Shown here piece by piece: positions 45,185 to 62,631 of a DNA stretch of 64,000 bases. Positions within the stretch are counted from its first letter, which is position 1; every line of letters begins with the position of its first letter. Made by a program: the position numbers and the translations under genes. The notes under the pieces are model-generated. The model ran no database searches, was not told where the DNA came from, and saw only the letters and a list, made by a program, of their open reading frames with translations. The stretch is from NCBI GenBank assembly GCA_003599255.1, contig QZJF01000016.1:863-64862 (forward strand), in the 5' to 3' direction. Source of the stretch: a candidate division WWE3 bacterium (GTDB lineage Bacteria; Patescibacteriota; WWE3; UBA101185; UBA10185).

Positions 45185-45248
45185 ATTTTCGATTATATAC
45201 TGAAACAAAAGTGGTTACTAACTAAAGTCAATTTGATAATATTACCCC

Positions 45249-45779
45249 ATGAACCTGTCCGGCAAAAAGAACGGTTATATTTCCCCTGTAGTTCTTCTAT
45301 TTATCTTTCTATTCATATCCGTACCGTTGATTTACTGGTTTGTCAGTTCCGATGAGGGAAGCCCAGAGGATGTAAAAGGTAGTTCTGACGTTGTTACAGA
45401 AGAGACCGAGGGCTTGTTAGTTAATGTTACCTCGGAAAGCACCTGGGATATGTACGTATACTTGTGTAAAAATTCTGATGAATGTGATGAGTCGTTAACA
45501 GCCGGAAAGAGAGTCGGAGTGTTTAGCGGAGGTGTCGTTTCAAAATTTACGGTTGCAGTTCCTCTAGACGAAACTTGGACTGAGGGAAATGTTGTTAAGT
45601 TTTATATAAAACCTGGTTGGGGATCCTCCGGGAGAGTTTTTAGCGCGGAGTCAGTAGGTGATTCCGGTGCTGAAGTGAAAAGAATTAGGAATGACGGTAT
45701 GGAGTTGGAAACAATATTTATAACAGTAGGTGATGAGCATATCGGCGGTTCGTGGGTTGGTGAATTCTCGGATCGTTAA
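45249..45779 (+). CDS. hypothetical exported protein (N-terminal signal anchor)
   Basis: 176 aa. N-terminal hydrophobic segment. No motif. Confidence 0.4.
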   Translation: MNLSGKKNGYISPVVLLFIFLFISVPLIYWFVSSDEGSPEDVKGSSDVVTEETEGLLVNVTSESTWDMYVYLCKNSDECDESLTAGKRVGVFSGGVVSKFTVAVPLDETWTEGNVVKFYIKPGWGSSGRVFSAESVGDSGAEVKRIRNDGMELETIFITVGDEHIGGSWVGEFSDR

Positions 45780-45784
45780 AACAG

Positions 45785-46729
45785 TTAAAATTGAGTGTAG
45801 TATTCAAATAATACAAAGATAAAATAAAGGGCAAGCAGCGCAACCGACTCCTTTTTGTCCAGATTCCCTTTCGATCTTGTGAAAATATAAAAAAGCAAAA
45901 GTGCGATCAGAAGAAAGATATTTGAAGACACACTCAAATCCGGATCTGAAGTATTTATTGGGAAGATGACTGCCGTAATACCTAGTACAAGAGTTGTGTT
46001 TGCTACCACACTCCCCACCACGTCCCCCATAACATCTTTTTCGTGATGATTTCGTACTGAAGCAATCGCAAAAGCAATTTCCGGCAGAGACGTACCTATG
46101 GCGGTGATGGTAAGACCTATAAATCCGATCTCTAGTTTAAGCAGAGTGCTGAGATTTATTGCTCCTCTTACAATGCCTTCGCTAGCTATGAGTATTACAA
46201 GCAACGATACAAAAAATATTAACAATTGTTTTGCTACATTGCGTCGTTCAAAACTCTCAAGGAGCTGTTCAATCCTTGAACTTCTCCTTATAAAGGCTAT
46301 TGTGTACACGGCATAGCCCACAAGCAGAAGCATTCCGTCCCGTTTGCCAAGAGTTCCGTCAAAAGAAAGTACCAGAGAAACCAAAACAAATAGAATGGTG
46401 TAATAGATGTCCTTGGACTTGAAAATTGACTCGGTCTTTAATTTTGAATTTAGTAGGCTGGGAAGCGCTACTATGAGTGTGAGCAGGGCAATATTCGAAC
46501 CCAGTACATTTCCATAAGATAACACCGATTCTTGTTCGAGGGCTGCAGTGATCCCCACAAATGCTTCCGGCAGAGATGTGGCAATTGCTACCAACAAAAA
46601 ACTTACTGTATAGGAAGATATTTTCAGTGCGTGCGAAAGCTTAGTAACTGACTTAACAAAATAATCCACTGCTTTTATTAAGACTAGCGAAGCTCCCAAC
46701 AAGAGCAGCATATTGAGGAGTGTTTGCAT
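45785..46729 (-). CDS. CaCA-family cation/Ca2+ exchanger (YrbG-like)
   Basis: Two alpha-repeats containing ATSLPE / GTSLPE. About 10 TM segments. Confidence 0.75.
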   Translation of the reverse strand: MQTLLNMLLLLGASLVLIKAVDYFVKSVTKLSHALKISSYTVSFLLVAIATSLPEAFVGITAALEQESVLSYGNVLGSNIALLTLIVALPSLLNSKLKTESIFKSKDIYYTILFVLVSLVLSFDGTLGKRDGMLLLVGYAVYTIAFIRRSSRIEQLLESFERRNVAKQLLIFFVSLLVILIASEGIVRGAINLSTLLKLEIGFIGLTITAIGTSLPEIAFAIASVRNHHEKDVMGDVVGSVVANTTLVLGITAVIFPINTSDPDLSVSSNIFLLIALLLFYIFTRSKGNLDKKESVALLALYFIFVLFEYYTQF

Positions 46730-46777
46730 TAGTCAATAATACTACAAATAGGGTTTTTGCTGTGATACCATTTCCTT

Positions 46778-47302
46778 ATGCAGCTTGTAGATCGCAAGTC
46801 CTGGTTGTGGAATTACCTTCAGCCCGAAATTAAGAATCTTATAAGCGACGGTGAGATTCTATTAACATTTGTACGTAAGGGAAAAACCGGAGCAAAAATC
46901 ACTGACTATTCGTTCCTTGTTTTCCCATTTGCAAAGGCCTATGAGGGCTTCTTAAAAAAGTTATTTCTTGACTTAGGAATTATCGCCCACGATGAGTATT
47001 ATGGAGACGAGATACGCATAGGGCGACTGCTGAACCCCAGATATCAAAAAGAAGTTCGGAACGTATTCTCTCACGAATGCCGCAGTGCAACCGGGAAAAA
47101 GCCTTTAATGGAGGAGTTATGGGCTGTCTGGAAGAGGGGGAGAAATTTGGTGTTTCATTATTTTCCTCATAATTTCAGGAAACTTTCATATCAGGAAGCT
47201 ATGGATATTATCACGGAGATGGTCGATATTATGCACTCCGCCGTGGCTGATTGCGAACTTAACGTCAAAGTTAAGTCGGAGGAAGTTTCATCAATCCTCT
47301 GA
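46778..47302 (+). CDS. hypothetical protein
   Basis: 174-aa ORF. No motif. Confidence 0.4.
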   Translation: MQLVDRKSWLWNYLQPEIKNLISDGEILLTFVRKGKTGAKITDYSFLVFPFAKAYEGFLKKLFLDLGIIAHDEYYGDEIRIGRLLNPRYQKEVRNVFSHECRSATGKKPLMEELWAVWKRGRNLVFHYFPHNFRKLSYQEAMDIITEMVDIMHSAVADCELNVKVKSEEVSSIL

Positions 47303-47327
47303 ATTTTGTATCTAGTATAATTCCCTT

Positions 47328-48401
47328 GTGTTTATAAAGAAGAATAAAGGAAAAAAGAAAGTTGCGATAGGTTTAAGCGGCGGAGTCGATTCGTCGGTTG
47401 CTGCGTATCTACTAAAGGAACAGGGATTTGAAGTTGTAGGCGTGTATATGCAGTGTTGGGATGAAAAGGCCGACGGGTGTGTCGCTGATGTCGATAGAAG
47501 CTTTGCAGTAGCTACAGCCGCGTCTCTGGGGATAAAATTTATTCATCTGGACTTTAAAGATAGATACAAGTCCAAAGTCATTGATTATTTTTATTCCGAG
47601 TATGAGCATGGGCGCACCCCTAATCCTGATGTATTGTGTAATAAAGAAATTAAGTTTGGGCTTTTTTACGATTGGGCACTTGAAAAGGGTTACGATTTTG
47701 TAGCTACGGGACACTATGCGCGCGTCGAGACCGGAAACAATGAAATCCTTTTGAAAAGAGGAATAGATGAATCTAAAGATCAATCCTACTTTTTATATTT
47801 GTTAGAACAGAGGCATTTAGAAAAGGTTATTTTTCCGGTGGGTAATCACACAAAGGCTGAAATCAGAGAAATTGCAAAAAACACCAACTTGCCCCCTGCT
47901 AAGCGCCCTGAGAGTATGGGAATTTGTTTCATAGGGGAGGTTGATATTAAAGATTTTTTAAAAAAGAGGATTGAAGAGAGGAAAGGAGAGGTTATTTTTA
48001 AGGATGGTGAGAATATTGGAGAACATGACGGGGTTTGGTTCTACACAATAGGGCAACGTCACGGGTTTAGGGTAAATAAATACTTCGGAACGCCATTATA
48101 TGTTTTATCAAAGGATATGACACGCAACACGCTGACTGTGGGCAGGTATGATGATGCGTTATCAGAGGCTTTTGAAATAAGTGATATACACTGGATAGGC
48201 AAAAATTACCTGTCTGATTGTAAAGATTTGAAGTGCGATGTAAGAATAAGGCACTTGGGAGAGATTATTAATTGTAATTTGGTAATGATTGAGTCCGGAT
48301 TTCGCGTTGAGTTGACTAAACCGGTCTTTGCTGTTGCACCCGGACAGAGTGCCGTTTTCTATAAAGACGATGTGGTCTTGGGCGGTGGTGTAATAGTCTG
48401 A
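47328..48401 (+). CDS. mnmA: tRNA-specific 2-thiouridylase MnmA
   Basis: PP-loop SGGVDSS and catalytic Cys region. 357 aa. GTG start. Confidence 0.9.
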   Translation: MFIKKNKGKKKVAIGLSGGVDSSVAAYLLKEQGFEVVGVYMQCWDEKADGCVADVDRSFAVATAASLGIKFIHLDFKDRYKSKVIDYFYSEYEHGRTPNPDVLCNKEIKFGLFYDWALEKGYDFVATGHYARVETGNNEILLKRGIDESKDQSYFLYLLEQRHLEKVIFPVGNHTKAEIREIAKNTNLPPAKRPESMGICFIGEVDIKDFLKKRIEERKGEVIFKDGENIGEHDGVWFYTIGQRHGFRVNKYFGTPLYVLSKDMTRNTLTVGRYDDALSEAFEISDIHWIGKNYLSDCKDLKCDVRIRHLGEIINCNLVMIESGFRVELTKPVFAVAPGQSAVFYKDDVVLGGGVIV

Positions 48402-48403
48402 AC

Positions 48404-50785
48404 TTAGTTGGTATTAAAAGTCGCGGATCTGACTATGATTTTGTTTTTCCATTTTCCTTTTGTATCAATTTTTACAGTTATATTTCTGATTTCTTCAAGA
48501 TTATTATTTGCATCCAAAGACCTGAAAAATACCTCTACGATACCGTCTTGACCTATTGTTACAGGTAAATTGTATTCTTTCCATTCACTATCTTTGCCGA
48601 CTTTATAAAGGATGGTTGCATTCTCAACATTATTCTGTTCAGAAAGAGTTAAAACGGGGTATTCAGTAAACCATTCGTCCGTTTGTATACCGGTAATTTG
48701 AAACAAGGTAACAGGAGGTAACGAGTCATTATTTAGTCCAAATGCAGCAAAATGGCTTAGATGGTTGGTCTCAGTGCTGATTTTATTGTTTAAGGAATCA
48801 AATATTGTTTCCATGGGAATCCATCTTAAGCCGTTTTCATCTAAGTAGTATATCTTCAGCGTGTCCGGAAGAATGTCGTGCAAGTCTATTCCTGAGATGT
48901 CCAGTGTAATTTTTAATATACCGGACAAAATAGTTATCTTGTTTCCCACAGTATCGAAGAAATCCAAGAAAGCCGAGGTGGAGGGAACGTACTTAAGTTC
49001 TTTTTGCGAATCATCAAGAGTAGGTTTATTTCCGGATTGCAATAGTATCGTACCGGGTAATGTAGAGTTTAGGTTTGTATAGTGTATCTCTTTATTGTCC
49101 ATCGTTATGGTTTTGTCTATTCCGGGTACGACGAACTCGGAAGTATTATGTATATCGTGTTGCCACAAGTATCTACTTCTATTACCTGTTCTTAAAAGGC
49201 TTTCGTCCTGCCATGAGAATTCTTTCCATGGATCGGATAGATTGTTTGTTAACCAGCCAAACGGGTCAACCCGCCCGTCAATGACGTTATCGCTAAAGGT
49301 GCCATTAAAATTTTTGTCCTGTAATACAGCAAAATGTAAGTGGGGTCCAGTCGTGTTTCCGGTTAAACCAACCTTTCCTATTGTCGTACCGGTGTCAATC
49401 CAAACCTTTGTGTTAGTGGTGATAAGTTCGTCCTGTTGAAGATGCATGTATGTTGTTCTGTATCCGTTTTGGTGATCAATATGAATTGTATGTCCACATG
49501 CAAAACAATAATAGTAAGTTGCATATCCCGGAGCCGGCGCTTTGATGGGTGTTCCATACGGAAGCGCAAAGTCTATTCCGTCATGACTACTATAAAAGAG
49601 TCTGGGTTGGGGAGCTCTTTCCCCCCAAAAGTTCAGAGTAGTATTTTTTGATGCGTCCGGTTCAGGCATGCCAGTTCCTAAGAATGGGTACTCGTGGTCA
49701 AAAAATGAGTACACTTTGTCGATAAGTTCGTTTTCGTCGCTGTATTCCCAGGGTATTTCCAGAAAACTAAACTTATCATACGAATCTTGCGGTACTGTGT
49801 ATTTATATACTCCGGAATCCAAGGTGGAGAAGTAGATGAATCCTGGGTATGAAAATACCCATGTTGCGTCGGAGCCAGTTGTACCGGAGTACGGAAGATT
49901 AAGTCCTGTATCCTCCCAGCTCACTCCTTCGTCAGAGCTTCGAAAGACCGTAAATGCATTTGAGTTGGGACTTATAGTTCCAATATAAATATCGTGTCTG
50001 TATTTTGTCATACCTCCAATGCGATGATTTTCAAAATTTTCCAATTTTTGCCAACTTTTCCCTTGGTCTATTGACCTATACAATCCGTCATTGTTGAATG
50101 TACCGATCATTGCCGTTGTTTGGTCAATATATCCGGACCTGATTATCTTGCCCGATAATTCGGGGACATCTGTCCAACTTTGGCCTTTGTCATGAGATTT
50201 GTATACCTTGTTGTTTGTCGCGACCAGTGTGAAATCTTTTGAAGTCAGAATCATTTCAATTTTTGGCCCATACCATCCTGTTCCAATCATTTGTGTCCAG
50301 GTAGTTCCTTCGTCAGATGATACCCATAATCCGTTGCTGTATGTTCCCAAATATATTGTGCTTTCATCTCTGCCGATTTTAGAGGCAGAAACGTTAGGGC
50401 CGGTATGTATCCAAACACCCCCAGGATTCTGTGAGAAAAACAATCCTGTCTGTGAATTGACTACATTGTATGTTGTTGCGTAAACAATCCCTTGTTGATA
50501 ATTGAGATCCGTCACGCCCCTTTCGCTCAGAGAAAGGTCTGTCCAGGTTTCTCCGCTGTCATAAGAAATCTTTATACCGTTAAAACTATTACGATATACG
50601 CTTGTATTGTTTTCTCCAAGCATAAGGCCCCATTTCGTATTCTCTACGCTTGAAACGTAGGGAATATTAATAACGTGTTTCCAGGAAGGCTCCGCATTTG
50701 TTGCAGGACTGTAGAAATAAAATATCCACATAAGGAATACAAAACACGTAATTACAAATCGACTTATTCGGGTAAAGTTTTTCAT
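48404..50785 (-). CDS. secreted multidomain protein: BNR/Asp-box repeat beta-propeller plus M23 (LytM-type) metallopeptidase domain
   Basis: Signal peptide. Five S-x-D-x-G-x-(T/S)-W Asp-boxes (SYDSGETW, SSDEGTTW, SHDKGQSW, SIDQGKSW, SSDEGVSW). M23 motifs H...D and GPHLHF. Confidence 0.7.
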   Translation of the reverse strand: MKNFTRISRFVITCFVFLMWIFYFYSPATNAEPSWKHVINIPYVSSVENTKWGLMLGENNTSVYRNSFNGIKISYDSGETWTDLSLSERGVTDLNYQQGIVYATTYNVVNSQTGLFFSQNPGGVWIHTGPNVSASKIGRDESTIYLGTYSNGLWVSSDEGTTWTQMIGTGWYGPKIEMILTSKDFTLVATNNKVYKSHDKGQSWTDVPELSGKIIRSGYIDQTTAMIGTFNNDGLYRSIDQGKSWQKLENFENHRIGGMTKYRHDIYIGTISPNSNAFTVFRSSDEGVSWEDTGLNLPYSGTTGSDATWVFSYPGFIYFSTLDSGVYKYTVPQDSYDKFSFLEIPWEYSDENELIDKVYSFFDHEYPFLGTGMPEPDASKNTTLNFWGERAPQPRLFYSSHDGIDFALPYGTPIKAPAPGYATYYYCFACGHTIHIDHQNGYRTTYMHLQQDELITTNTKVWIDTGTTIGKVGLTGNTTGPHLHFAVLQDKNFNGTFSDNVIDGRVDPFGWLTNNLSDPWKEFSWQDESLLRTGNRSRYLWQHDIHNTSEFVVPGIDKTITMDNKEIHYTNLNSTLPGTILLQSGNKPTLDDSQKELKYVPSTSAFLDFFDTVGNKITILSGILKITLDISGIDLHDILPDTLKIYYLDENGLRWIPMETIFDSLNNKISTETNHLSHFAAFGLNNDSLPPVTLFQITGIQTDEWFTEYPVLTLSEQNNVENATILYKVGKDSEWKEYNLPVTIGQDGIVEVFFRSLDANNNLEEIRNITVKIDTKGKWKNKIIVRSATFNTN

Positions 50786-50879
50786 AGACCCAACATAGTC
50801 GAGTCGGTATTTAATTAAAATATGGTTTCGGCTACTTTACTTGGAGAAGTGTTTTTTCCTGTGTTCCAGCCATTTTCAG

Positions 50880-50908
50880 TTGACCGAACCTATAGTATAT
50901 AGTATAAT
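50880..50908 (+). promoter_or_regulatory. consensus sigma70 promoter TTGACC-17-TATAAT upstream of the GC-rich gene
   Basis: Read directly. Followed by AAGGAGAG SD and ATG at 50956. Confidence 0.5.
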
Positions 50909-50955
50909 TACCTTATCAAAAGTTCTTTTAATCAGCATAGAAAAAAAGGAGAGAC

Positions 50956-51918
50956 ATGTACCAGTTTTATTTCCCGTATCAGTACGAACGCCTGCAGGCA
51001 ATTCGGCGGATGACGAATGTTCTGATCGTCATTGCCATTTTGCTTGCTGCCCATCTCTTCGTCACCCTGTTCGATGTGACCGGCGATGAAGTCATCGGGT
51101 TTGCGCGCAACGCGTATGCCTGGGTGGGAGATCAACTTTCACAGGCCATTAATGATGTGCGCGCCGCAGATACGGTGATCGCAGAGGAGGCCAATCCAAC
51201 CCAGAGTGCCGAACTTTATATGAATGTTCACAACTTTGAGGATGGTGAAGATACGCTCTACTACATGCAGCCTGAGGCGGTTGAGGACATCATGAAATAC
51301 AATGAGATCGGACTGCCCGAGCCCACATACGTAGGTCGTGATGACTTTGACCTCTTGGTTCCCCATTACGCATACCGGGAGCTTCCACTGGCTGAAACTT
51401 GGGTCGTCAACAAATCGCAATTCCCGTGGTTATGGGTAAACCCCATTGACCATTTCAACGCCGACGACGAACCCTATGTTTCCTGGCAGATTGGCACATA
51501 CATGGATGGGCAGGTGTTCACCGTGGTTGACTCGGAGTCTGAGGGTTATTACGAACTCAGATGGACCGCGACTGATGGTGAGCACGTGCAAATGGTTCCG
51601 GATAACAACATGTTCAAAATCTCCACCTGTGACCAGATCGGCAACTTTCCTAATAAGTTTGCTGCTTATATTCAGGTTAAAGACGACGGCATGTTGGTTT
51701 TCCATGAGCCCGCAGGGGAACCTGTCTTCTCAATGCACGCTGTATCCTGCGGATATGGAGCATACTACCTTGCGTGGGATGCACCTTTGAGGATACCGTT
51801 TGGCGTCATTGAGCCTGACTCACTCCTTAAGTACTACTGGCACAACCAGATGATGTGTCGGGAATATTATTGGAATCAGGGACTTTGTTGGTCTTACGAG
51901 ACAGACGTCGCCCGCTGA
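50956..51918 (+). CDS. hypothetical Cys-containing exported protein encoded by an anomalously GC-rich (~50%) gene; probable horizontal acquisition
   Basis: 320 aa. N-terminal TM/signal anchor. Codon usage (CGC, CTG, GGC) unlike neighbouring genes. Confidence 0.5.
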   Translation: MYQFYFPYQYERLQAIRRMTNVLIVIAILLAAHLFVTLFDVTGDEVIGFARNAYAWVGDQLSQAINDVRAADTVIAEEANPTQSAELYMNVHNFEDGEDTLYYMQPEAVEDIMKYNEIGLPEPTYVGRDDFDLLVPHYAYRELPLAETWVVNKSQFPWLWVNPIDHFNADDEPYVSWQIGTYMDGQVFTVVDSESEGYYELRWTATDGEHVQMVPDNNMFKISTCDQIGNFPNKFAAYIQVKDDGMLVFHEPAGEPVFSMHAVSCGYGAYYLAWDAPLRIPFGVIEPDSLLKYYWHNQMMCREYYWNQGLCWSYETDVAR

Positions 51919-52018
51919 TTCCTGCTATGCTGACCGACCGGGGTCCGAGAGAAAGATCTTTTTTCACTCTTGGGCTCCGGTTTTCAGTTTCCAGACTCTT
52001 TTACTGTATAATACTCAC

Positions 52019-53338
52019 GTGAATCAGCTAATTTCAAAAATTAAAGAACACAATAAAGACCTTAAAAACAGGGAAATAGAGGGTATTTTGTACCTGCTGA
52101 TCTCTAATCATGGTATCTCGAGCATGGATTTGATAAAAGCAACCGGATTACCCAAAGAAACTTTGAGAATTTTTAAAACTTCCATTTCGCATTTACTTGA
52201 AAAAAATGATGAGGATAGACTGCAATTTACGGAAGAGAGTCTAAAAGTACTTAGGGAGTCCAATCTTCGTCCATATGATTGGAGTACTGTGAAATATGCA
52301 AACGCAGCCGCTGAAGCCGGGCTCGTTGACATAAGGAAAAAATATAAACTGCAGCCTAAGAGGGAGTTTGATCAGTTTTTTGCTACCGAAAGCACTTCAA
52401 TAGCCAAAACGATGGTGATGGAAAATAAATTAGGTCTGGAAAATAAAGATGTAGTGCTTCTTGGAGACGACGATCTAATTTCTATAGCACTTCCGTTGTT
52501 GGGAATTAAGCCAAAGAGCGTAACAGTGCTGGATATAGACAAGGATTTGCTTTCCGTTATAGAGGACATAACCGCCGATATGGGTATAAACAATACCCAC
52601 ACCTCTGTATACGATTTCAGAAAGGACCCTGACAAAAATCTTTTAAATAAATTTGATGTAGTTGTAACTGATCCGCCATATACATCGTCAGGCGTAAAGT
52701 TATTTTTAAACAGAGGGGTTCAGTTGCTCAAGAAAAAAGACGATCACTCTGGGAGTTACATTTTCTTTTATTATGGAAACAGTTTCAAATCACCGGAAAA
52801 GACTTTAAAAGTTCAGGACATTATAGGTAGATTCAATTTGGTAATTGAAGACAAGATAGACAAGTTTGCGCGGTACAATGGGGCGGAGTCTATAGGCAGC
52901 GCCAGTTCTTTGTATGTTCTTAAGTCCACATCAAGTACCTTTGAACTCAGTGACTTATCGGATTATTCCGATATTTATACGTACTCGTCAACTTCCGAAG
53001 AAAAGTTTCCGTACGTGGATCACTTTACCTTCAAGCTGTATAACGTTCCTGCGAACATGCTGAAATCAAAAACCGCTATTTTCAAGGCTGCCGGAGATTT
53101 TTGCACAAGACACAAGTTAAAGGTTGTTGACCAAAAGGTTACGAAGTTTAAAGGACAGGGGTTAACAGTAACCTATGTGCTTTCAAATTCAAACCTCTTG
53201 CTTCATACCTGGCCTGAGCACGGAGCACTGCATGTGGATCTTGTAACCTGTTCTCCCATATATGATAAGGAAGGACTTTCATACACTCTCATGAAGGTAT
53301 TCGGAGCTAAATCCATAGATACTAGGAAAATTGAATAA
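52019..53338 (+). CDS. putative bifunctional polyamine enzyme: aminopropyl/methyl-transferase-like domain (GDDDL, DPPYT motifs; DUF43/BpsA-like, tentative) fused to C-terminal S-adenosylmethionine decarboxylase (SpeH-type)
   Basis: C-terminal HFTFKLYNV ... LLLHTWPEHGALHVDLVTC matches the SpeH hallmark HTWPE...D.FTC. Middle region has VLLGDDDLIS and VVVTDPPYT. GTG start. Confidence 0.55.
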   Translation: MNQLISKIKEHNKDLKNREIEGILYLLISNHGISSMDLIKATGLPKETLRIFKTSISHLLEKNDEDRLQFTEESLKVLRESNLRPYDWSTVKYANAAAEAGLVDIRKKYKLQPKREFDQFFATESTSIAKTMVMENKLGLENKDVVLLGDDDLISIALPLLGIKPKSVTVLDIDKDLLSVIEDITADMGINNTHTSVYDFRKDPDKNLLNKFDVVVTDPPYTSSGVKLFLNRGVQLLKKKDDHSGSYIFFYYGNSFKSPEKTLKVQDIIGRFNLVIEDKIDKFARYNGAESIGSASSLYVLKSTSSTFELSDLSDYSDIYTYSSTSEEKFPYVDHFTFKLYNVPANMLKSKTAIFKAAGDFCTRHKLKVVDQKVTKFKGQGLTVTYVLSNSNLLLHTWPEHGALHVDLVTCSPIYDKEGLSYTLMKVFGAKSIDTRKIE

Positions 53339-53554
53339 AGGTTGTTATAATGAACAGGAATAACTGTTGACTTAATGATATTAAGTTGCTATCTTCCAGT
53401 TTGCTAGCAAATATATGCTAGAATTATTCGTTGTTTTGTTAATTCCGAAGAGAACTTTGAAATATACATAGATAGAGCAATCCTTGAACAATTAGTTTGA
53501 GTACCTTAAGTAACTTTGAAATTTTCGAGGTTCAAGAGGTAAGAAGAATATTTT

Positions 53555-55024
<1,470 letters not shown>

Positions 55025-55253
55025 CTAGGGAGAAAACACGTATCTTTGATTGATGGAATCTTGTGTTTGCTATACGCAAACAAAGGCCATTGAAATAGAA
55101 GATACAACATATATCCGATAGCTCTGAGGATATGTGTTTTAGGCTGTTATGTGTTGCCTCACAACAGCTGAGCAAGTTCGACAGTAAGCTTAAACTGTCA
55201 AAAGAAATATTCTTCTTGCCTTTTGGATCTTGAAATTTATATTGTTTGAAACT

Positions 55254-55622
55254 TTAGGACCTGGCTCTATCTCTGTATTCGTAACCAAGCATAATTAATT
55301 TTTGCTTCTGTTCATCATTTAAGTCTTTCCCGATTTCCTGCAGGAAGTCCTGCAACATTACTCTAATTGATTCTTCCAGATGTGTTTGGATTTCATCCTC
55401 TTTCCAGTATTTTTTAATAACCTGAGTTAATTCTTCAATATTGGCTGTTGGTGTAAAAATTTCATCAGAGCCTATTTTAGATTTAGTATCAGCCCCAAGT
55501 CTTAGAACAGCATTCCTGAATATCTTATCTGCAACATCTGTGGAAACTTCGTCTGCATTGTCAATTCCAATGCCGTTTAATAAATCAAACAAAAATTGTT
55601 TTAAAAGATTTTGATCATTCAT
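55254..55622 (-). CDS. hypothetical protein (antisense to rRNA orientation, in 16S-23S interval)
   Basis: 122-aa ORF whose start overlaps the upstream ORF stop (ATGA coupling). Confidence 0.35.
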   Translation of the reverse strand: MNDQNLLKQFLFDLLNGIGIDNADEVSTDVADKIFRNAVLRLGADTKSKIGSDEIFTPTANIEELTQVIKKYWKEDEIQTHLEESIRVMLQDFLQEIGKDLNDEQKQKLIMLGYEYRDRARS

Positions 55623-56035
55623 TACGATTCCTTTTCCTGTTGATTTTCAAAATGTTCTGCTGCTCTGCCGAAATATCTCGACATTCCATAGCCTACTGCG
55701 GCGCCGATGCTGCCAGAGATCACTCCGGCAGGGTTCCCGGTCACGGCTCCAATTGGAACTGTACCGGCTGACATGCTTCCCGTAACCAAAGTGCCTTTGC
55801 TTAGCGATTTAGCCAATTTTGCTCTTTCTTCATCTGTTTCTGCCCCTTTCTCAATATACTTTATTGCCATCCCTAATGCCGCTTCATCCATTCTTTCCAG
55901 CCAACCGCCTATAGTTTGCTTAATAGTTTCCATGTTACTAAGTTGTTCGGGTTGGGATATATCCGCAACACTTTCTGTTGCGTCTTCCGCCGAAAAATTC
56001 TCGTGTTCTGCGTCGTCTTTTAAAAACTCACTCAC
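55622..56035 (-). CDS. hypothetical protein with C-terminal glycine-zipper hydrophobic segment
   Basis: Acidic N-terminal half, then GTLVTGSMSAGTVPIGAVTGNPAGVISGSIGAAVGYG (GxxxG repeats). GTG start; start uncertain. Confidence 0.35.
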   Translation of the reverse strand: MSEFLKDDAEHENFSAEDATESVADISQPEQLSNMETIKQTIGGWLERMDEAALGMAIKYIEKGAETDEERAKLAKSLSKGTLVTGSMSAGTVPIGAVTGNPAGVISGSIGAAVGYGMSRYFGRAAEHFENQQEKES

Positions 56036-56109
56036 CTAATTATTATCAAACGGGCGGTAACTGAAGTCAACCGTTGTCGTGACTTGATTTAATGGTGTAA
56101 AATGCACCT

Positions 56110-56529
56110 ATGACAATAACTAATGGTAAAGAAAAAGGAATTGCAGTCGGAGTTGTCAAGAATCCTGCAGGAAAAGTGTTGATAATGGATAGGATAAGAA
56201 AAGAAACCGGTGCTGACGGAAGCAAGCTTACCTGGGTCTTTCCAGGGGGAAAGCTTGACGGTTCCGAAACGTTTGAAGACGCAGTTGTCCGCGAAATTTT
56301 GCTGGAAACAGGGTTTAAGGTAAAAGTTAACAAACTTATCTCCGAAAGAGTTCATCCGCAATTTGAGGTCCCGATCAAATACTTTGCCTGCGAATTAGCC
56401 GAATTTCGGACAAGGCCCATACAGGAAATTCACGAAGTATCAACAATAAGATGGGTAGATGTCTCAGAGCTACGCGATTACTTTACTACGGATATTGATC
56501 CCAACGTCGCGAAGTTTTTAAAGATTTAG
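56110..56529 (+). CDS. NUDIX hydrolase
   Basis: Nudix box GGKLDGSETFEDAVVREILLETG (Gx5Ex7REUxEExGU). Confidence 0.75.
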   Translation: MTITNGKEKGIAVGVVKNPAGKVLIMDRIRKETGADGSKLTWVFPGGKLDGSETFEDAVVREILLETGFKVKVNKLISERVHPQFEVPIKYFACELAEFRTRPIQEIHEVSTIRWVDVSELRDYFTTDIDPNVAKFLKI

Positions 56530-56541
56530 CCTAAATGTTCT

Positions 56542-56564
56542 TGGTGGGCGATCGTGGACTCGAA
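56542..56564. repeat. 23-nt direct repeat identical to the 3' end (T-loop to CCA) of the adjacent tRNA-Ile(GAU); att-site-like duplication
   Basis: tggtgggcgatcgtggactcgaa occurs at 56542-56564 and again at 56613-56635 (the tRNA 3' end on the minus strand). The copies are 48 nt apart. Confidence 0.6.
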
Positions 56565-56612
56565 GACGCTCGCTTCGTTCGCTTGGTTCTCGTTGAGTAG
56601 ACCAAAAGTATA

Positions 56613-56689
56613 TGGTGGGCGATCGTGGACTCGAACCACGGACCTTTCCCTTATCAGAGGAATGCTCTAACCACCTGAGCTAATCGCCC
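56613..56689 (-). tRNA. tRNA-Ile (anticodon GAU), CCA encoded, antisense to the rRNA genes
   Basis: Cloverleaf: GGGCGAT acceptor, anticodon loop CTGATAA, T-loop TTCGAGT. Confidence 0.85.
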
Positions 56690-56765
56690 TAGAAACAGAT
56701 GAATTCTACCATGTGATTTCTCCGGAAGTCTACGCTAGATCAATATATTATGATAACATTTTGGT

Positions 56766-57821
56766 ATGTACAAGCTTTTTGCTTTACTTTTTTTCTCTCT
56801 ACCTCCACTGTTACTATTTGCCATTCTGCTTAGAGTGGACGACAATCTTGGTTTTGGTCTGACAATATATCTGTTTTTGGCAATTCTGCTCCTTTATGTG
56901 ATATTTTTTGTTCTGGTCATTTTTCGCAGTATGTTTCAGATGAAAAAGGAACTCGCCGTAAGCCGTTTCATGAAGCTTCTGTCTGATGAGTTTCACATTG
57001 TATCTAAAAAATACTCTTTTTTTGTCAATTCCTTGTTGTTTTCCTGGTTGGTTGTTTTGGTTTTTATCATGTTTTACACAGTGAGTTTTATGTTTGCGCA
57101 ATATGTGGGAAAGCATTATGGAGATGAGATTAGAAATTTCCTGAAACAGCCTACGGTTAGCACATCGGACTTGTTGAATACAACTGAGGAGATGAAAGAT
57201 GAGTTGCGGGACCTCAAAACAAAGTTTTACGAACAAAATCAGTTAGATTTTTTTTCCAATAATTCTAGTACTTACTCTGAGGAGGAGGCACCTTACATTG
57301 TATTCTTAGATTTCAGCTTCCGCGAGGATTCCTCACCGGGGTTCAAGAGTTATTTTCTGTACTCTGTAAACATCTGTGCCGACGATGATCCGGAAAGTAT
57401 TGGGGTAGAGAGATGTTTGGATATCAGAGGTCCCATGGATTCTGAACTAAAGTTTAAATTCGCAAAGGAAGAAACTGTGTCGAATATTAATTTACGGGAG
57501 ATTTATGCCGCGGATTTTAACCAGCCATTCTTTGTACTCGAAATTGAAACAAATCTTAGGGATGCAGCGGTGCTGGTATATCCTGTCGATACTGATGATC
57601 TAAGCTACTCATACATTCCAAATACCAGTATCAACTCCGAGGCGAAGTTCGCAACATATGTGCAGGTCAATCAAATACAGAACGGTATTGTTTTTCTCGA
57701 ACGTATCAGGGACTTAGTAAACGGAGTAGTTGATGATACCGGAAAAGATCTGCATGTCACTGTTTTTAAAGAGAATGGTATTGTGAACTACCAGTATTCT
57801 CCGGTTAACGTCCAGCCCTAA
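56766..57821 (+). CDS. hypothetical membrane protein
   Basis: 351 aa. Four N-terminal TM segments followed by a soluble domain. Confidence 0.45.
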   Translation: MYKLFALLFFSLPPLLLFAILLRVDDNLGFGLTIYLFLAILLLYVIFFVLVIFRSMFQMKKELAVSRFMKLLSDEFHIVSKKYSFFVNSLLFSWLVVLVFIMFYTVSFMFAQYVGKHYGDEIRNFLKQPTVSTSDLLNTTEEMKDELRDLKTKFYEQNQLDFFSNNSSTYSEEEAPYIVFLDFSFREDSSPGFKSYFLYSVNICADDDPESIGVERCLDIRGPMDSELKFKFAKEETVSNINLREIYAADFNQPFFVLEIETNLRDAAVLVYPVDTDDLSYSYIPNTSINSEAKFATYVQVNQIQNGIVFLERIRDLVNGVVDDTGKDLHVTVFKENGIVNYQYSPVNVQP

Positions 57822-57830
57822 TTTTAATTT

Positions 57831-58829
57831 ATGAAACAATACCCCAAAGTAGTAGTTATAGGCGGAGGAACAGGAACATATGCTGTTCTTTCGGGTTTAA
57901 AGAAATATCCGGTCCATTTATCTGCAATTGTTACCATGATGGATTCCGGAGGTTCGACCGGAAGATTAAGAGACCAATTAGGTGTGCTGCCTCCAGGAGA
58001 TTTGAGACAGTCATTGGTAGCGCTTTCAGAATCTACTGAAATATGGAGAAACCTGTTCGCATATAGGTTTGATAACGGTGATCTGGAGGGGCACAATTTT
58101 GGAAACATATTTTTGTCGTCACTTGAGATGATAACTGGTTCAAATGAACGCGCTATTCATTACGCTGCAAGACTATTGAAGACAAAAGGAAAGGTAATTC
58201 CCGTTACGTTAACAAAATCCACTCTATGTGCAAAATATTCTGACGGAACAATCCTTGAAGGGGAAAAGCTAATAGATTACGCGCCGGCACCCAGAGCGCG
58301 TATAAATTATGTTTATCTTTCCCCTAGAGCCGTAATAAATCCTAACGCCAGAAAAGCCATAGAAACAGCCGATTTCTTGATATTCGGACCGGGAGACCTG
58401 TATACAAGCATTATTCCTAATTTAATAGTGGACGACATGGATGATGCAATTAGAAAAAGTAAAGCGAATAAAATATTTTGTATAAATTTAATGACTAAGT
58501 TGGGCCAGACTGATGGATTTAAGGCCTCCGATTTTGTCACTGAGCTATATAAGTACCTGGGCGGGGCAATGGTAGATTCTCTGGTTGTAAACAATAAAGA
58601 ACCGGATAAGGAAGTGGTAGATTGGTACGCACGATCGGGGGACGCATTCCTGGTTGAAGACGATCTTGATTCAATTGGCGGGGACATAGAGGTTTTTAGG
58701 GGAGATTTGCTTAGTGATACGCGCTATGAACAGTCTTTGTCTGATAGGATCCAAAGGAGCTTAATCCGACACGATCCGGACAAACTGGCAAAAGTGCTAT
58801 CCGAAGTTATCCAGAAAATCTTAGGTTGA
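57831..58829 (+). CDS. YvcK/CofD-like (UPF0052, gluconeogenesis factor family) protein
   Basis: N-terminal VVVIGGGTGTYAVLSGLK and family-typical length. Confidence 0.7.
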   Translation: MKQYPKVVVIGGGTGTYAVLSGLKKYPVHLSAIVTMMDSGGSTGRLRDQLGVLPPGDLRQSLVALSESTEIWRNLFAYRFDNGDLEGHNFGNIFLSSLEMITGSNERAIHYAARLLKTKGKVIPVTLTKSTLCAKYSDGTILEGEKLIDYAPAPRARINYVYLSPRAVINPNARKAIETADFLIFGPGDLYTSIIPNLIVDDMDDAIRKSKANKIFCINLMTKLGQTDGFKASDFVTELYKYLGGAMVDSLVVNNKEPDKEVVDWYARSGDAFLVEDDLDSIGGDIEVFRGDLLSDTRYEQSLSDRIQRSLIRHDPDKLAKVLSEVIQKILG

Positions 58830-59088
58830 CATCACTTTATACCGGTGCTAGAGTATCAGGTACGGAATGGGTAGTTCAACTTCCATATGGACTTTCTTTG
58901 CGTTTTTATGCGCAGGAATCTTAAAAAGATTCTTCAGGAAGCTCTGAATATCTATGTTTTAAACAATTGAATGTGAATAGTTTTACTTGTTGATTAAGTG
59001 TGCTACATTAGTGAGACCTGCAGTATGTTAGGCCAATGAGTGCATTCTCGGTCCTGCCTACGCGGGCTTGTACAGTCCCGTAAGTTTA

Positions 59089-59164
59089 CGGGCCTGTAGC
59101 TTAGTTGGTAGAGCGCCGCATTTGCATTGCGGAGGTCACGGGTTCGAATCCCGTCGGGTCCACC
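59089..59164 (+). tRNA. tRNA-Ala (anticodon UGC), CCA encoded
   Basis: G3·U70 identity pair. Anticodon loop TTTGCAT. T-loop GGTTCGAATCC. Confidence 0.9.
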
Positions 59165-59254
59165 AGATTAGTAAGTGCCCTTTGAAAACTGAATAAAAGT
59201 ATCTGATTTCGAAAGAAGTCAGGATACGAAAACTCTAAATTTTATGACAACAAT

Positions 59255-62385
<3,131 letters not shown>

Positions 62386-62514
62386 TATGAAGTCATAGAG
62401 AAGAGTTTTTGTATTCGGCTTTAGCCGCTTTACGCGCTTGCGCGAAAGGGGCCGGAGGCCACTTTTATTCAGTTTTTAGAGGGTACGAACATTAAAAATA
62501 AGTTTGTGTTCAGC

Positions 62515-62631
<117 letters not shown>

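What the first reader, a model, noticed from the sequence alone, without database searches (positions are those of the whole stretch)
52019..53338. Single polypeptide combining an aminopropyltransferase-like Rossmann domain with a SpeH-type S-adenosylmethionine decarboxylase
- The C-terminal ~120 aa carry the AdoMetDC hallmark (LLLHTWPEHGALHVDLVTC, compare ...IHTWPEYGYAA.DLFTC in SpeH).
- The preceding region carries GDDDL and DPPYT motifs. I associate these with the DUF43/branched-chain polyamine synthase (BpsA) family of dcSAM-dependent aminopropyl transferases.
- The N-terminus looks like a small helical/wHTH domain.
- Fusing the dcSAM-producing and dcSAM-consuming steps would channel a labile intermediate.
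- This is not the common SpeD-SpeE arrangement.
Basis: partly seen in the sequence, partly recalled or inferred. Interest (0 to 1): 0.6.

Follow-up and report, generated by a model that had tools for sequence, protein, structure and literature searches.

The report
Fused polyamine synthase and SAM decarboxylase
One gene in this candidate-phylum (WWE3) bacterium joins an enzyme that decarboxylates S-adenosylmethionine to a BpsA-type enzyme that uses that product to lengthen or branch polyamines; the fusion is real, is conserved across the lineage, and I found no paper describing it.

Summary
ORF 52019-53338 (+, 439 aa, GTG start) has three parts:
- aa 1-109: a helical, winged-helix-like N-domain.
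- aa 110-302: a BpsA-type Rossmann domain (Pfam PF01861, 5.2e-40).
- aa 335-439: a class 1b S-adenosylmethionine decarboxylase domain (PF02675, 1.5e-19), joined by a flexible linker.

An AlphaFold model (pLDDT 93.5, pTM 0.84) matches solved BpsA structures (E about 1e-23). It also matches T. maritima AdoMetDC (TM 0.82, rmsd 2.1 A).

The catalytic residues of both halves are invariant or nearly so in 120 homologues: GDDD, DPPYT, Tyr286, the pyruvoyl precursor Ser391, His396 and Cys411.

The fusion occurs in at least 58 species-level genomes, which by their record titles are all or nearly all WWE3 or other Patescibacteria.

Best explanation: a self-contained enzyme that turns SAM into dcSAM and then aminopropylates an amine. 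The acceptor and product are unknown.

It differs from characterised BpsA: BpsA's last ~60 residues, with the acidic aminopropyl-carrier tail, have no detectable counterpart. It differs from canonical SpeD: the cleavage site is N-S-N instead of E-S-H, and Lys replaces Tm Glu11.

The known precedent is the SpeD-SpeE fusion. This one uses a different transferase family in the opposite order. I rate it a new variant of a known kind, of moderate interest.

The parts
52007..52012 (+). TATAAT -10 box, ending 6 nt before the GTG start. No Shine-Dalgarno motif lies between them, so the mRNA is probably leaderless or nearly so.
   Evidence: Sequence read directly. A box matching at least 5 of 6 positions and ending 6-9 nt before the start is present in 29 of 32 orthologous loci, against 4.6% of random positions.
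52019..53338 (+). Complete CDS: 439 aa, GTG start, TAA stop. BpsA-like aminopropyltransferase fused to AdoMetDC.
52019..52345 (+). N-terminal helical, winged-helix-like domain (aa 1-109), homologous to the N-domain of BpsA-family proteins.
   Evidence: The phmmer and profile alignments to 2qm3 begin at aa 2. The model has helices at aa 2-9, 17-29, 35-42, 46-55, 72-80 and 96-109, plus short strands, with pLDDT of 90 or more.
52346..52924 (+). BpsA-type Rossmann (class I methyltransferase-like) aminopropyltransferase domain, aa 110-302.
   Evidence: PF01861 at 137.7 bits, aa 110-294, profile positions 13-191 of 243. Foldseek matches to 2qm3 (5e-24), 5xnc (3e-23) and 6j27 (2e-17).
52463..52474 (+). 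GDDD motif (G149-D152). It corresponds to Tk-BpsA Gly157-Asp160, which positions the aminopropyl amine of dcSAM.
   Evidence: Aligned to 'lGDDDl' of 5xnc. Invariant in 120/120 homologues. The role of the motif is taken from PMC12979288.
52670..52684 (+). DPPYT motif (D218-T222). D218 corresponds to Tk-BpsA Asp225. Tk-BpsA has DPPET and Thermus BpsA has DPVEG at this position.
   Evidence: Alignments. D, P, P and T are invariant in 120/120; Y is 119/120.
52874..52876 (+). Tyr286, the equivalent of Tk-BpsA Tyr290 (an acceptor-site residue). Detectable sequence similarity to BpsA ends one residue later.
   Evidence: Alignments. Invariant in 120/120.
52925..53020 (+). Interdomain linker, aa 303-334. 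It is Ser- and acid-rich with lowered model confidence, but ends in a conserved stretch: I-Y320-T, E327/E328, then F330-P331.
   Evidence: pLDDT is 74 and 59 for the 10-residue blocks aa 311-320 and 321-330. Y320, F330 and P331 are 120/120; E327 and E328 are each 98/120.
53021..53335 (+). Class 1b AdoMetDC (SpeD/SpeH-type) domain, aa 335-439.
   Evidence: PF02675 at 70.7 bits. The family profile matches 1tlu at 1.1e-10 over Tm residues 7-107. Foldseek target TM-score is 0.82 and rmsd 2.1 A.
53033..53035 (+). Lys339, at the position of T. maritima Glu11. This is a charge reversal specific to the BpsA-fused clade.
   Evidence: Profile alignment. K 114, R 5 and Q 1 among 120 homologues. BpsA fusions in the representative library have K/R/M, whereas stand-alone relatives mostly have E.
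53189..53191 (+). Ser391, the predicted pyruvoyl precursor. Self-cleavage is predicted between N390 and S391, giving a ~45 kDa chain (aa 1-390) and a 49-residue chain that starts with the pyruvoyl group.
   Evidence: Aligned with Tm Ser63. Invariant in 120/120. Cleavage itself is inferred, not shown.
53204..53218 (+). HTWPE (H396-E400). H396 corresponds to Tm His68. P399 is the proline reported as completely conserved in bona fide AdoMetDCs.
   Evidence: The criterion comes from PMC10407285.
53249..53251 (+). Cys411, the equivalent of Tm Cys83 (processing and catalysis).
   Evidence: Invariant in 120/120.

Best explanation
The gene encodes a bifunctional polyamine-biosynthesis enzyme.

1. **Activation (inferred).** The C-terminal class 1b AdoMetDC domain cleaves itself between N390 and S391, converting S391 into a pyruvoyl cofactor.
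2. **Donor synthesis (inferred).** That domain then decarboxylates S-adenosylmethionine to dcSAM. By analogy with T. maritima AdoMetDC, it probably works as a dimer.
3. **Donor binding (inferred).** The BpsA-like Rossmann domain remains covalently attached to the N-terminal (beta) fragment of the decarboxylase. It binds dcSAM through the invariant GDDD motif.
4. **Transfer (inferred).** It transfers the aminopropyl group to an amine held near D218-P-P-Y221 and Y286, releasing methylthioadenosine.

The acceptor is most likely a polyamine or polyamine precursor, such as spermidine, putrescine or agmatine, possibly scavenged from outside the cell. Whether the product is branched, as with BpsA, or linear is unknown.

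Shown here: the domain identities, the predicted folds, the conservation of catalytic residues, and the conservation of the fusion across the lineage. Inferred: self-processing, both enzyme activities, any hand-over of dcSAM between the domains, and the substrate.
For: - **Domain matches.** Both Pfam domains score well above their curated cut-offs.
- **Closest solved relatives.** These are BpsA proteins (2qm3 at 1.3e-30, Tk-BpsA 5xnc at 1.2e-27) and AdoMetDC (2iii, 1tlu).
- **Structure.** The AlphaFold model has pLDDT 93.5 and pTM 0.84. Foldseek matches BpsA at 5e-24 to 3e-23 and Tm AdoMetDC at TM 0.82.
- **Transferase residues.** The dcSAM-positioning GDDD motif and the equivalents of Asp225 and Tyr290 are invariant in 120 homologues (roles from PMC12979288).
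- **Not an ODC- or ADC-type homologue.** The proline diagnostic of bona fide AdoMetDC is kept in 114/120. The Gln/Thr/Phe/Tyr signature of the SpeD-derived ornithine decarboxylases is absent.
- **Link to aminopropyltransferases.** A close stand-alone relative of the C-domain (P0152) is encoded directly after a SpeE spermidine synthase gene. SpeE-AdoMet_dc fusions in the same domain order also exist (P0226, P0235).
- **Conservation of the fusion.** It is maintained at 40-64% identity in 58 species genomes, and in more distant clades at 30-43% identity in the C-domain.
- **Functional precedent.** AdoMetDC-SpeE-type fusions from Ca. Pelagibacter have both activities (PMC11107197).
Against: - No activity data exist for any family member.
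- The decarboxylase domain scores below NCBIfam's equivalog cut-off for AdoMetDC (TIGR03330, 54.8 bits against 75.65).
- Two positions near the catalytic centre differ consistently from stand-alone relatives:
  - Lys/Arg at the Tm Glu11 position. Stand-alone relatives mostly have Glu (51 E, 5 D and 6 Q among the 90 sequences aligned there).
  - Asn right after the pyruvoyl Ser. Stand-alone relatives have His in 107/120.
- The last ~60 residues of Tk-BpsA have no detectable counterpart. That region includes Tyr316 and the acidic cluster reported to carry the aminopropyl group in the ping-pong mechanism. The transfer chemistry and product may therefore differ from BpsA.
- No other polyamine gene lies in the 64-kb window, so the acceptor has no genomic support.
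- The DPPY motif is the form typical of amino-group methyltransferases rather than the DPPE of characterised BpsA.
Confidence: 0.75

Rival explanations
1. The C-terminal domain is a neofunctionalised SpeD homologue acting on another substrate. It could be an arginine or ornithine decarboxylase that supplies the amine acceptor. Alternatively, it could decarboxylate a carboxy-aminopropylated product made by the transferase from SAM. In either case it would not be an AdoMetDC.
For: - SpeD homologues have repeatedly become Arg or Orn decarboxylases, including in candidate phyla radiation bacteria (PMC10407285).
- The fusion clade has specific substitutions at the Tm Glu11 position (Lys/Arg) and right after the pyruvoyl Ser (Asn instead of His).
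- It scores below the TIGR03330 equivalog cut-off.
Against: - The proline that separates bona fide AdoMetDC from the Arg decarboxylases is retained (114/120). The four residues diagnostic of the Orn decarboxylases are absent.
- A basic Lys is an unlikely adaptation to a cationic Arg or Orn side chain (inference).
- The invariant GDDD motif of the partner domain is the dcSAM-type donor site, and that domain needs a source of dcSAM.
- A close stand-alone relative is paired with a SpeE gene.
Confidence: 0.1
2. The transferase domain aminopropylates something other than a free polyamine, for example an amino group on a protein, RNA or DNA base, or a cell-envelope component. The fused decarboxylase would supply dcSAM.
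For: - The invariant DPPY motif is the form found in amino-group methyltransferases (from memory).
- The rRNA m6A methyltransferase METTL5 is among the matches, by profile (1e-6) and by fold (3.5e-9).
- The BpsA C-terminal lid, which governs polyamine selectivity, is missing.
- No polyamine precursor genes lie in the window.
- The gene sits directly upstream of the 16S rRNA gene in about 49 of 58 genomes.
Against: - The domain is far closer to BpsA (137.7 bits) than to any methyltransferase family (23 bits or less, below cut-off).
- The BpsA acceptor-site residues Asp225 and Tyr290 are conserved.
- The position next to the rRNA gene is part of a long conserved gene order (fpg, GT4, mnmA, M23 peptidase, fusion gene, 16S), so it does not indicate a functional link.
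- A divergent fusion member lies in a different context without rRNA.
- From my own knowledge, no dcSAM-dependent modification of a macromolecule is known.
Confidence: 0.08
3. One of the two domains is catalytically dead. The fusion would then be a regulatory or structural arrangement, for example a SAM-sensing pseudo-decarboxylase attached to an active transferase, or the reverse.
For: - SpeD fusion proteins with a degraded second domain are documented (V. vadensis).
- A frameshifted copy of this gene exists in one lineage, so it can be dispensable.
Against: Every residue known to be needed for processing or catalysis in both domains is invariant or nearly so across 120 sequences that share only 46-64% identity with the window protein. 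That pattern indicates selection on catalysis in both halves.
Confidence: 0.05

Closest known systems
BpsA, N4-bis(aminopropyl)spermidine synthase (EC 2.5.1.128; Tk-BpsA TK1691, PDB 5xnc; P. furiosus homologue 2qm3; Thermus BpsA 6j27)
   Same: - Two-domain layout: an N-terminal helical domain followed by a Rossmann domain, alignable from aa 2 to 287.
- The GDDD donor motif, the Asp of DPP and Tyr290 are all conserved.
- Fold match at E about 1e-23.
- It is closer to the archaeal Thermococcales type (1e-27 to 1e-30) than to the Thermus type (5e-12).
   Different: - Sequence similarity stops right after Tyr290. Tyr316 and the C-terminal acidic aminopropyl-carrier cluster (Glu339-Glu345) have no detectable counterpart. 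A linker and a whole AdoMetDC domain sit there instead.
- The motif is DPPY rather than DPPE.
- The hosts are WWE3/Patescibacteria, recovered from aquifer and wastewater samples (record titles; PMC3812714). Characterised BpsA enzymes come from thermophiles.
- Product unknown.
Class 1b S-adenosylmethionine decarboxylase (SpeD/SpeH; T. maritima TM0655, PDB 1tlu/1vr7; A. aeolicus 2iii)
   Same: - Full-length domain match (Pfam profile positions 1-104 of 107).
- Same fold (TM 0.82).
- Ser63, His68, Cys83, Gly53, the HTWPE proline and Glu72 are all conserved.
   Different: - It is fused to the C-terminus of a 334-residue transferase-plus-linker segment.
- The cleavage site reads N/S/T/Q-Ser-Asn rather than Glu-Ser-His.
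- Lys/Arg replaces Tm Glu11.
- It scores below the TIGR03330 equivalog cut-off.
AdoMetDC-aminopropyltransferase (SpeD-SpeE) fusion proteins, e.g. Ca. Pelagibacter ubique HTCC1062 (PMC11107197). From memory, these were first described by Green et al., Mol Microbiol 2011.
   Same: One polypeptide combines the dcSAM-producing decarboxylase with a dcSAM-consuming aminopropyltransferase. Both domains are functional in the Pelagibacter proteins.
   Different: - In those proteins the transferase is SpeE-type (PF01564) and the decarboxylase is N-terminal.
- Here the transferase is BpsA-type (PF01861) and the decarboxylase is C-terminal.
- SpeE-AdoMet_dc proteins in this reversed order also exist in the sequence library (P0226, P0235). 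I found no characterisation of them.
SpeD-derived arginine and ornithine decarboxylases, and SpeD1-SpeD2 fusions (PMC10407285)
   Same: Same pyruvoyl fold family and the same conserved Gly/Ser/His/Cys. Some members also occur in candidate phyla radiation bacteria.
   Different: The ODC-diagnostic residues are absent and the AdoMetDC-type proline is present. The fusion partner is a transferase, not a second SpeD domain.

Membership tests
Class 1b AdoMetDC (SpeD/SpeH, PF02675) | Scores above the Pfam gathering threshold over the whole domain | tested here: met
   70.7 bits against a cut-off of 25; profile positions 1-104 of 107.
Class 1b AdoMetDC (SpeD/SpeH, PF02675) | Scores above the NCBIfam equivalog cut-off (TIGR03330) | tested here: not met
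   54.8 bits against 75.65.
Class 1b AdoMetDC (SpeD/SpeH, PF02675) | [quoted passage not shown] | tested here: met
   S391, C411 and G381 in 120/120; H396 in 119/120. Criteria from PMC10407285.
Class 1b AdoMetDC (SpeD/SpeH, PF02675) | The proline of HTWPE, completely conserved in bona fide AdoMetDC but not in the SpeD-derived Arg decarboxylases | tested here: met
   P399 is present in the window protein and in 114/120 homologues. That this is the paper's marked proline is my reading of its text; I could not see the figure.
Class 1b AdoMetDC (SpeD/SpeH, PF02675) | Acidic residue at the Tm Glu11 position and His after the pyruvoyl Ser, both typical of stand-alone members | tested here: not met
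   K339 (K 114, R 5) and N392 (115/120). Stand-alone relatives have E 51 and D 5 at the first position and His in 107/120 at the second. The functional weight of these residues is unknown to me.
Class 1b AdoMetDC (SpeD/SpeH, PF02675) | AdoMetDC fold | tested here: met
   Foldseek against 1vr7 and 1tlu: target TM 0.82, rmsd 2.1-2.3 A over 109-110 columns. The query is a predicted model.
Class 1b AdoMetDC (SpeD/SpeH, PF02675) | Autocatalytic cleavage and SAM decarboxylase activity | not testable with these tools
   Needs protein expression and an assay.
BpsA (EC 2.5.1.128, PF01861) | Scores above the Pfam gathering threshold | tested here: met
   137.7 bits against 27, but only profile positions 13-191 of 243 are covered.
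BpsA (EC 2.5.1.128, PF01861) | GDDD motif (Tk Gly157-Asp160), indispensable for catalysis | tested here: met
   G149-D152 align to it and are invariant in 120/120. Role.
BpsA (EC 2.5.1.128, PF01861) | Acceptor-site residues Asp225, Glu259, Tyr290 and Tyr316 | tested here: inconclusive
   - Asp225 corresponds to D218 and Tyr290 to Y286; both are invariant.
- Glu259 falls in a loop that is two residues shorter here. It aligns to F256, with the conserved E260 nearby.
- Tyr316 lies beyond the alignable region. The invariant Y299 and Y320 are candidates only.
BpsA (EC 2.5.1.128, PF01861) | Flexible C-terminal acidic cluster that carries the aminopropyl group (ping-pong mechanism) | tested here: not met
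   Nothing aligns after family position 287, and the Pfam match stops at profile position 191 of 243. A conserved EE pair (E327/E328, 98/120) in the flexible linker could substitute; this is untested inference.
BpsA (EC 2.5.1.128, PF01861) | N-terminal domain plus Rossmann domain architecture and fold | tested here: met
   Alignment to 2qm3 runs from aa 2 to 287. Foldseek gives 5e-24.
BpsA (EC 2.5.1.128, PF01861) | Makes N4-aminopropylspermidine and N4-bis(aminopropyl)spermidine | not testable with these tools
   Needs an enzyme assay or polyamine profiling.
N6-adenine / amino-group methyltransferases | Scores above a family threshold and has a SAM-type motif I | tested here: not met
   PF10237 scores 22.7 bits against 23.2; the other methyltransferase models score 21 bits or less. 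From memory, motif I in these enzymes is glycine-rich, whereas this protein has GDDD there. Only the DPPY motif is shared.
SpeD-SpeE type bifunctional fusion | AdoMetDC and an aminopropyltransferase in one polypeptide | tested here: met
SpeD-SpeE type bifunctional fusion | The transferase is SpeE-type (PF01564) and the decarboxylase is N-terminal | tested here: not met
   No PF01564 hit, and the decarboxylase is C-terminal. Compare PMC11107197.

The most novel reading that the evidence does not exclude
A whole lineage of small-genome, non-thermophilic candidate-phylum bacteria carries a self-sufficient 'SAM in, aminopropyl out' enzyme. It may work differently from both known aminopropyltransferase types. 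It has no acidic carrier tail, so transfer may be direct or may use the linker's EE pair. The remodelled decarboxylase site (Lys for Glu11, Asn after the pyruvoyl group) may be tuned to pass dcSAM to the fused transferase. The product would be either branched or long polyamines, so far described predominantly in thermophiles, or a non-polyamine aminopropylated target.
Probability: 0.2. Interest if true: 0.7.

Novelty: new variant of a known kind. Interest (0 to 1): 0.5.

Why it matters
- **Distribution of BpsA.** BpsA-type enzymes and branched-chain polyamines are described as occurring predominantly in thermophiles (PMC12979288). A conserved BpsA-like enzyme across WWE3 genomes from aquifers and wastewater would widen that picture.
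- **Metabolism of these bacteria.** It suggests that these metabolically sparse bacteria spend SAM on making or extending polyamines. The original WWE3 genome paper mentions polyamines only for the OD1 genome, not for WWE3 (PMC3812714).
- **Enzymology.** The fusion is a natural test of two questions: whether BpsA chemistry needs the acidic carrier tail, and whether dcSAM is handed directly between fused active sites.
- **Annotation.** NCBI names family members only 'bis-aminopropyl spermidine synthase family protein', which leaves out the decarboxylase half.

Tried and rejected
**Searches that found nothing or failed**
- Literature searches found no paper on a BpsA-AdoMetDC fusion or on polyamine synthesis in WWE3. 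The search was too loose and returned only unrelated polyamine papers.
- The 2026 BpsA review and the 2023 and 2024 Michael-lab papers do not mention such a fusion.
- Papers that could have settled the role of Tm Glu11 are not held (Giles & Graham 2008; Bale & Ealick 2010). My recollection of its role was not reliable enough, so I make no claim about it.
- Two contig look-ups failed because I trimmed the wrong end of minus-strand ORFs. I repeated them correctly.
- The afdb50 fold library was unavailable.
- No viral contig encodes a relative.
- Model coordinates are not exposed. I could not measure the distance between the two active sites or locate K339 in the model.

**Readings considered and rejected**
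- **DNA/RNA N6-methyltransferase for the middle domain.** All such hits are below cut-off.
- **Assembly chimera.** More than 120 homologues share the architecture.
- **Functional link to the adjacent 16S rRNA gene.** The position is part of a general conserved gene order in WWE3 and is absent in a divergent member.
- **Alternative genetic code for the fragmented copy in L062.** The breaks are frameshifts, not in-frame stop codons.

**Not possible with these tools**
- A whole-genome survey of WWE3 for speE, speA, speB, metK or mtnN.
Full report
**1. The observation**

The window holds an ORF at exactly 52019-53338 on the + strand (439 aa, GTG start). JGI's gene call on the source contig gives the identical product.

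Pfam gives two strong, non-overlapping matches:
- PF01861 BpsA_C: aa 110-294, 137.7 bits, E 5.2e-40.
- PF02675 AdoMet_dc: aa 335-438, 70.7 bits, E 1.5e-19, covering profile positions 1-104 of 107.

Methyltransferase models hit only weakly and below their cut-offs; the best is PF10237 at 22.7 bits against 23.2. GC content is typical of the window.

**2. Anatomy**

*Transferase half.*
- By sequence, the nearest solved structures are the P. furiosus BpsA homologue 2qm3 (1.3e-30, aligned from aa 2 to 286) and T. kodakarensis BpsA 5xnc (1.2e-27). Thermus BpsA is more distant (5e-12).
- A profile built from 120 family members gives the same picture. It shows that similarity to BpsA ends at family position 287, one residue after the equivalent of Tk Tyr290.
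- So the whole of aa 1-287, including the N-terminal helical domain, is BpsA-like.

*Decarboxylase half.*
- It aligns with T. maritima AdoMetDC from His7 to residue 107.
- S391 falls on the pyruvoyl precursor Ser63, H396 on His68 and C411 on Cys83.

*Structure.*
- An AlphaFold model built on the 120-sequence alignment is confident: mean pLDDT 93.5 and pTM 0.84. Only the 10-residue blocks aa 311-320 and 321-330 fall to 74 and 59.
- Foldseek matches the model to 2qm3 (5e-24), Tk-BpsA (3e-23) and Thermus BpsA (2e-17).
- Separately, it matches Tm and Aquifex AdoMetDC with target TM 0.79-0.82 and rmsd about 2.1 A.

**3. Conservation and distribution**

The protein search returned 310 relatives. The best 120 are all full-length, 46-64% identical, and carry both Pfam domains.

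Conservation across those 120:

| Feature | Count out of 120 |
|---|---|
| G149-D150-D151-D152 | 120 |
| D218, P219, P220, T222 | 120 |
| Y221 | 119 |
| Y286 | 120 |
| G381, S391, W398, E400, H405, C411 | 120 |
| H396 | 119 |
| P399 | 114 |

- A scan of one genome per GTDB species found the gene in 58 genomes.
  - Most are labelled candidate division WWE3, Patescibacteria or 'uncultured Saccharibacteria'.
  - A few carry other or generic labels ('Candidatus Nomurabacteria', 'uncultured Gammaproteobacteria', 'bacterium').
  - They include the closed genome CP006914.1.
  - The scan used family-specific peptide patterns, so 58 is a lower bound.
- The nearest relative is WWE3 RIFOXYD1_FULL_39_9, with 64% protein identity. 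Over the 173 bases of its 16S gene that lie on the contig, identity to the window is 94%.
- A search of 1.84 billion representative proteins with the C-domain alone found more distant fusion clades (30-43% identity in that domain).
  - One lacks the N-domain (P0163/P0272).
  - Source names for these, where present, are again WWE3 or Patescibacteria.
- No viral copies were found.

**4. Genomic context**

- The gene order fpg, GT4 glycosyltransferase, mnmA, M23 peptidase (opposite strand), fusion gene, 16S rRNA is shared by most of the 58 loci. In about 49 of them the 16S gene starts within roughly 0.1-2.9 kb downstream.
- The whole neighbourhood is collinear, and a divergent member sits in a different context. 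I therefore read the rRNA adjacency as lineage synteny, not a functional link.
- No polyamine-related gene lies anywhere in the 64-kb window.
- From memory, the one 'Lysine_decarbox' Pfam hit in the window (PF03641) is the LOG family and not a real lysine decarboxylase.

**5. What it most likely does**

*Criteria from the literature.*
- In Tk-BpsA the GDDD motif is indispensable, and its Asp159 and Asp160 position the aminopropyl amine of dcSAM. Asp225, Glu259, Tyr290 and Tyr316 activate the acceptor (PMC12979288).
- For SpeD homologues, a Gly, the Ser, a His and a Cys are conserved in all functional members.
  - A proline is completely conserved in genuine AdoMetDCs but not in the derived Arg decarboxylases.
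  - The derived Orn decarboxylases have a Gln/Thr/Phe/Tyr signature (PMC10407285).

*How this protein fares.*
- It meets the donor-site criterion for BpsA and all the processing and catalysis criteria for AdoMetDC. It lacks the ODC signature.
- A close stand-alone relative of the C-domain is encoded directly after a SpeE gene.
- SpeE-AdoMet_dc fusions in the same domain order exist.
- AdoMetDC-SpeE fusions from Pelagibacter have both activities (PMC11107197).

*Conclusion.*
The best explanation is a bifunctional enzyme. Self-cleavage at N390|S391 yields a pyruvoyl decarboxylase that makes dcSAM. The BpsA-like domain, still attached to the decarboxylase's N-terminal fragment, uses that dcSAM to aminopropylate an amine. 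I put this at about 0.75. Self-processing, both activities, any channelling and the substrate are all inferred.

**6. How it differs from the known families**

*From BpsA.*
- The last ~60 residues of Tk-BpsA have no detectable counterpart. That region includes Tyr316 and the acidic cluster Glu339-Glu345, reported to carry the aminopropyl group in a ping-pong mechanism.
- The Pfam match stops at profile position 191 of 243 here, although it reaches 210-217 in the more distant fusion clades.
- In its place is a flexible linker that ends in conserved I-Y320-T, E327/E328 and F330-P331. The EE pair might stand in for the acidic lid, but that is speculation.
- The motif is DPPY rather than DPPE.

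*From canonical SpeD.*
- The residue before the Ser is N, S, T, Q or A, never E. Close stand-alone relatives also vary at this position.
- The residue after the Ser is Asn in 115/120. Stand-alone relatives have His in 107/120.
- The Tm Glu11 position is Lys/Arg in 119/120 family members and K/R/M in all 19 BpsA-fusion representatives. Among the 90 stand-alone sequences aligned at that position, 51 have E, 5 D and 6 Q; most of the few K/R cases are probably fragments of fusion proteins.
- The same position is Glu in characterised SpeD1 domains and Asp in the ODC domains printed in the 2023 paper's supplement.
- These clade-specific changes are unexplained. They are the main reason I keep a 0.1 rival in which the decarboxylase has a different substrate.
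- The domain also scores below NCBIfam's AdoMetDC equivalog cut-off.

**7. Novelty and verdict**

- **Already known:** the principle of fusing the dcSAM producer to its consumer (SpeD-SpeE fusions). Databases already label family members as 'bis-aminopropyl spermidine synthase family protein' or 'S-adenosylmethionine/arginine decarboxylase-like enzyme'.
- **New, as far as the searchable literature shows**:
  - the BpsA-type partner;
  - the reversed domain order;
  - the loss of the BpsA carrier tail;
  - the remodelled decarboxylase site;
  - conservation of the fusion across a candidate phylum recovered from aquifers and wastewater rather than hot environments.

I rate it a new variant of a known kind, with interest 0.5.

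Noticed in passing
window 52007-52012, and the orthologous loci L002-L058: A TATAAT-like -10 box ends 6-9 nt before the start codon of the fusion gene in 29 of 32 WWE3 loci, against 4.6% of random positions. The start codon is GTG in 22 of 32. This implies a leaderless or near-leaderless mRNA with a GUG start. The same arrangement is seen at 20 of 61 called genes on this contig, so it looks like a genome-wide habit.
   Followed up: partly
window 53553-62630: The rRNA genes are not a compact operon.
- 16S is at 53553-55024, 23S at 59257-62387 and 5S at 62517-62630.
- The 4.2 kb between 16S and 23S holds five protein genes, a tRNA-Ile on the opposite strand (56613-56689) and a tRNA-Ala (59090-59165).
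- The 23S match spans 3131 nt for a 2925-position model, which suggests about 200 nt of insertion.
   Followed up: no
window 43219-55024, and loci L002-L059: The gene order fpg, GT4 glycosyltransferase, mnmA, M23 peptidase (opposite strand), fusion gene, 16S rRNA is conserved across most of the 58 WWE3-like genomes, even though their proteins share only ~30-60% identity. Many assemblies break just after the fusion gene, inside the 16S gene.
   Followed up: partly
L062:298-1519 and L063:1877-3098: A relative of the fusion gene is split by three frameshifts into four pieces, in two independent assemblies (JGI and ENA). The breaks are frameshifts, not reassigned stop codons. This is either a pseudogene in that lineage or a shared sequencing error.
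   Followed up: partly
P0168 (NCBI RLI52977.1, Candidatus Thorarchaeota archaeon, 400 aa): This protein has a PP-loop ATPase domain (QueC/ThiI/ATP_bind_3-like) fused to a complete C-terminal AdoMet_dc domain, with Ser, His, Cys and the Glu11-type acidic residue all intact. I know of no description of this architecture.
   Followed up: no
P0226 (428 aa) and P0235 (475 aa): These are SpeE-type spermidine synthase domains followed by a C-terminal AdoMet_dc domain. That is the reverse of the order in the characterised Pelagibacter AdoMetDC-aminopropyltransferase fusions.
   Followed up: no
window 35577-36806 (-): A 409-aa protein combines ribulose-phosphate 3-epimerase (PF00834) with a LOG-type domain (PF18306, PF03641). 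This is an unusual fusion. The 'Lysine_decarbox' name of PF03641 is, from memory, a misnomer; the domain is not a polyamine enzyme.
   Followed up: no
window 50956-51918 (+): The 320-aa ORF directly upstream of the fusion gene has no Pfam hit. A relative was found only in the nearest genome, L002 (33% identity). In the other WWE3 genomes the M23 peptidase gene directly abuts the fusion gene, so this looks like a recent insertion. Local GC content is higher here (0.448).
   Followed up: no
window 39286-41073 (-) and 10470-11429 (-): Two other genes stood out: an ATP-dependent DNA ligase (DNA_ligase_A N, M and C domains) and a RimK/MvdD-like ATP-grasp protein.
   Followed up: no
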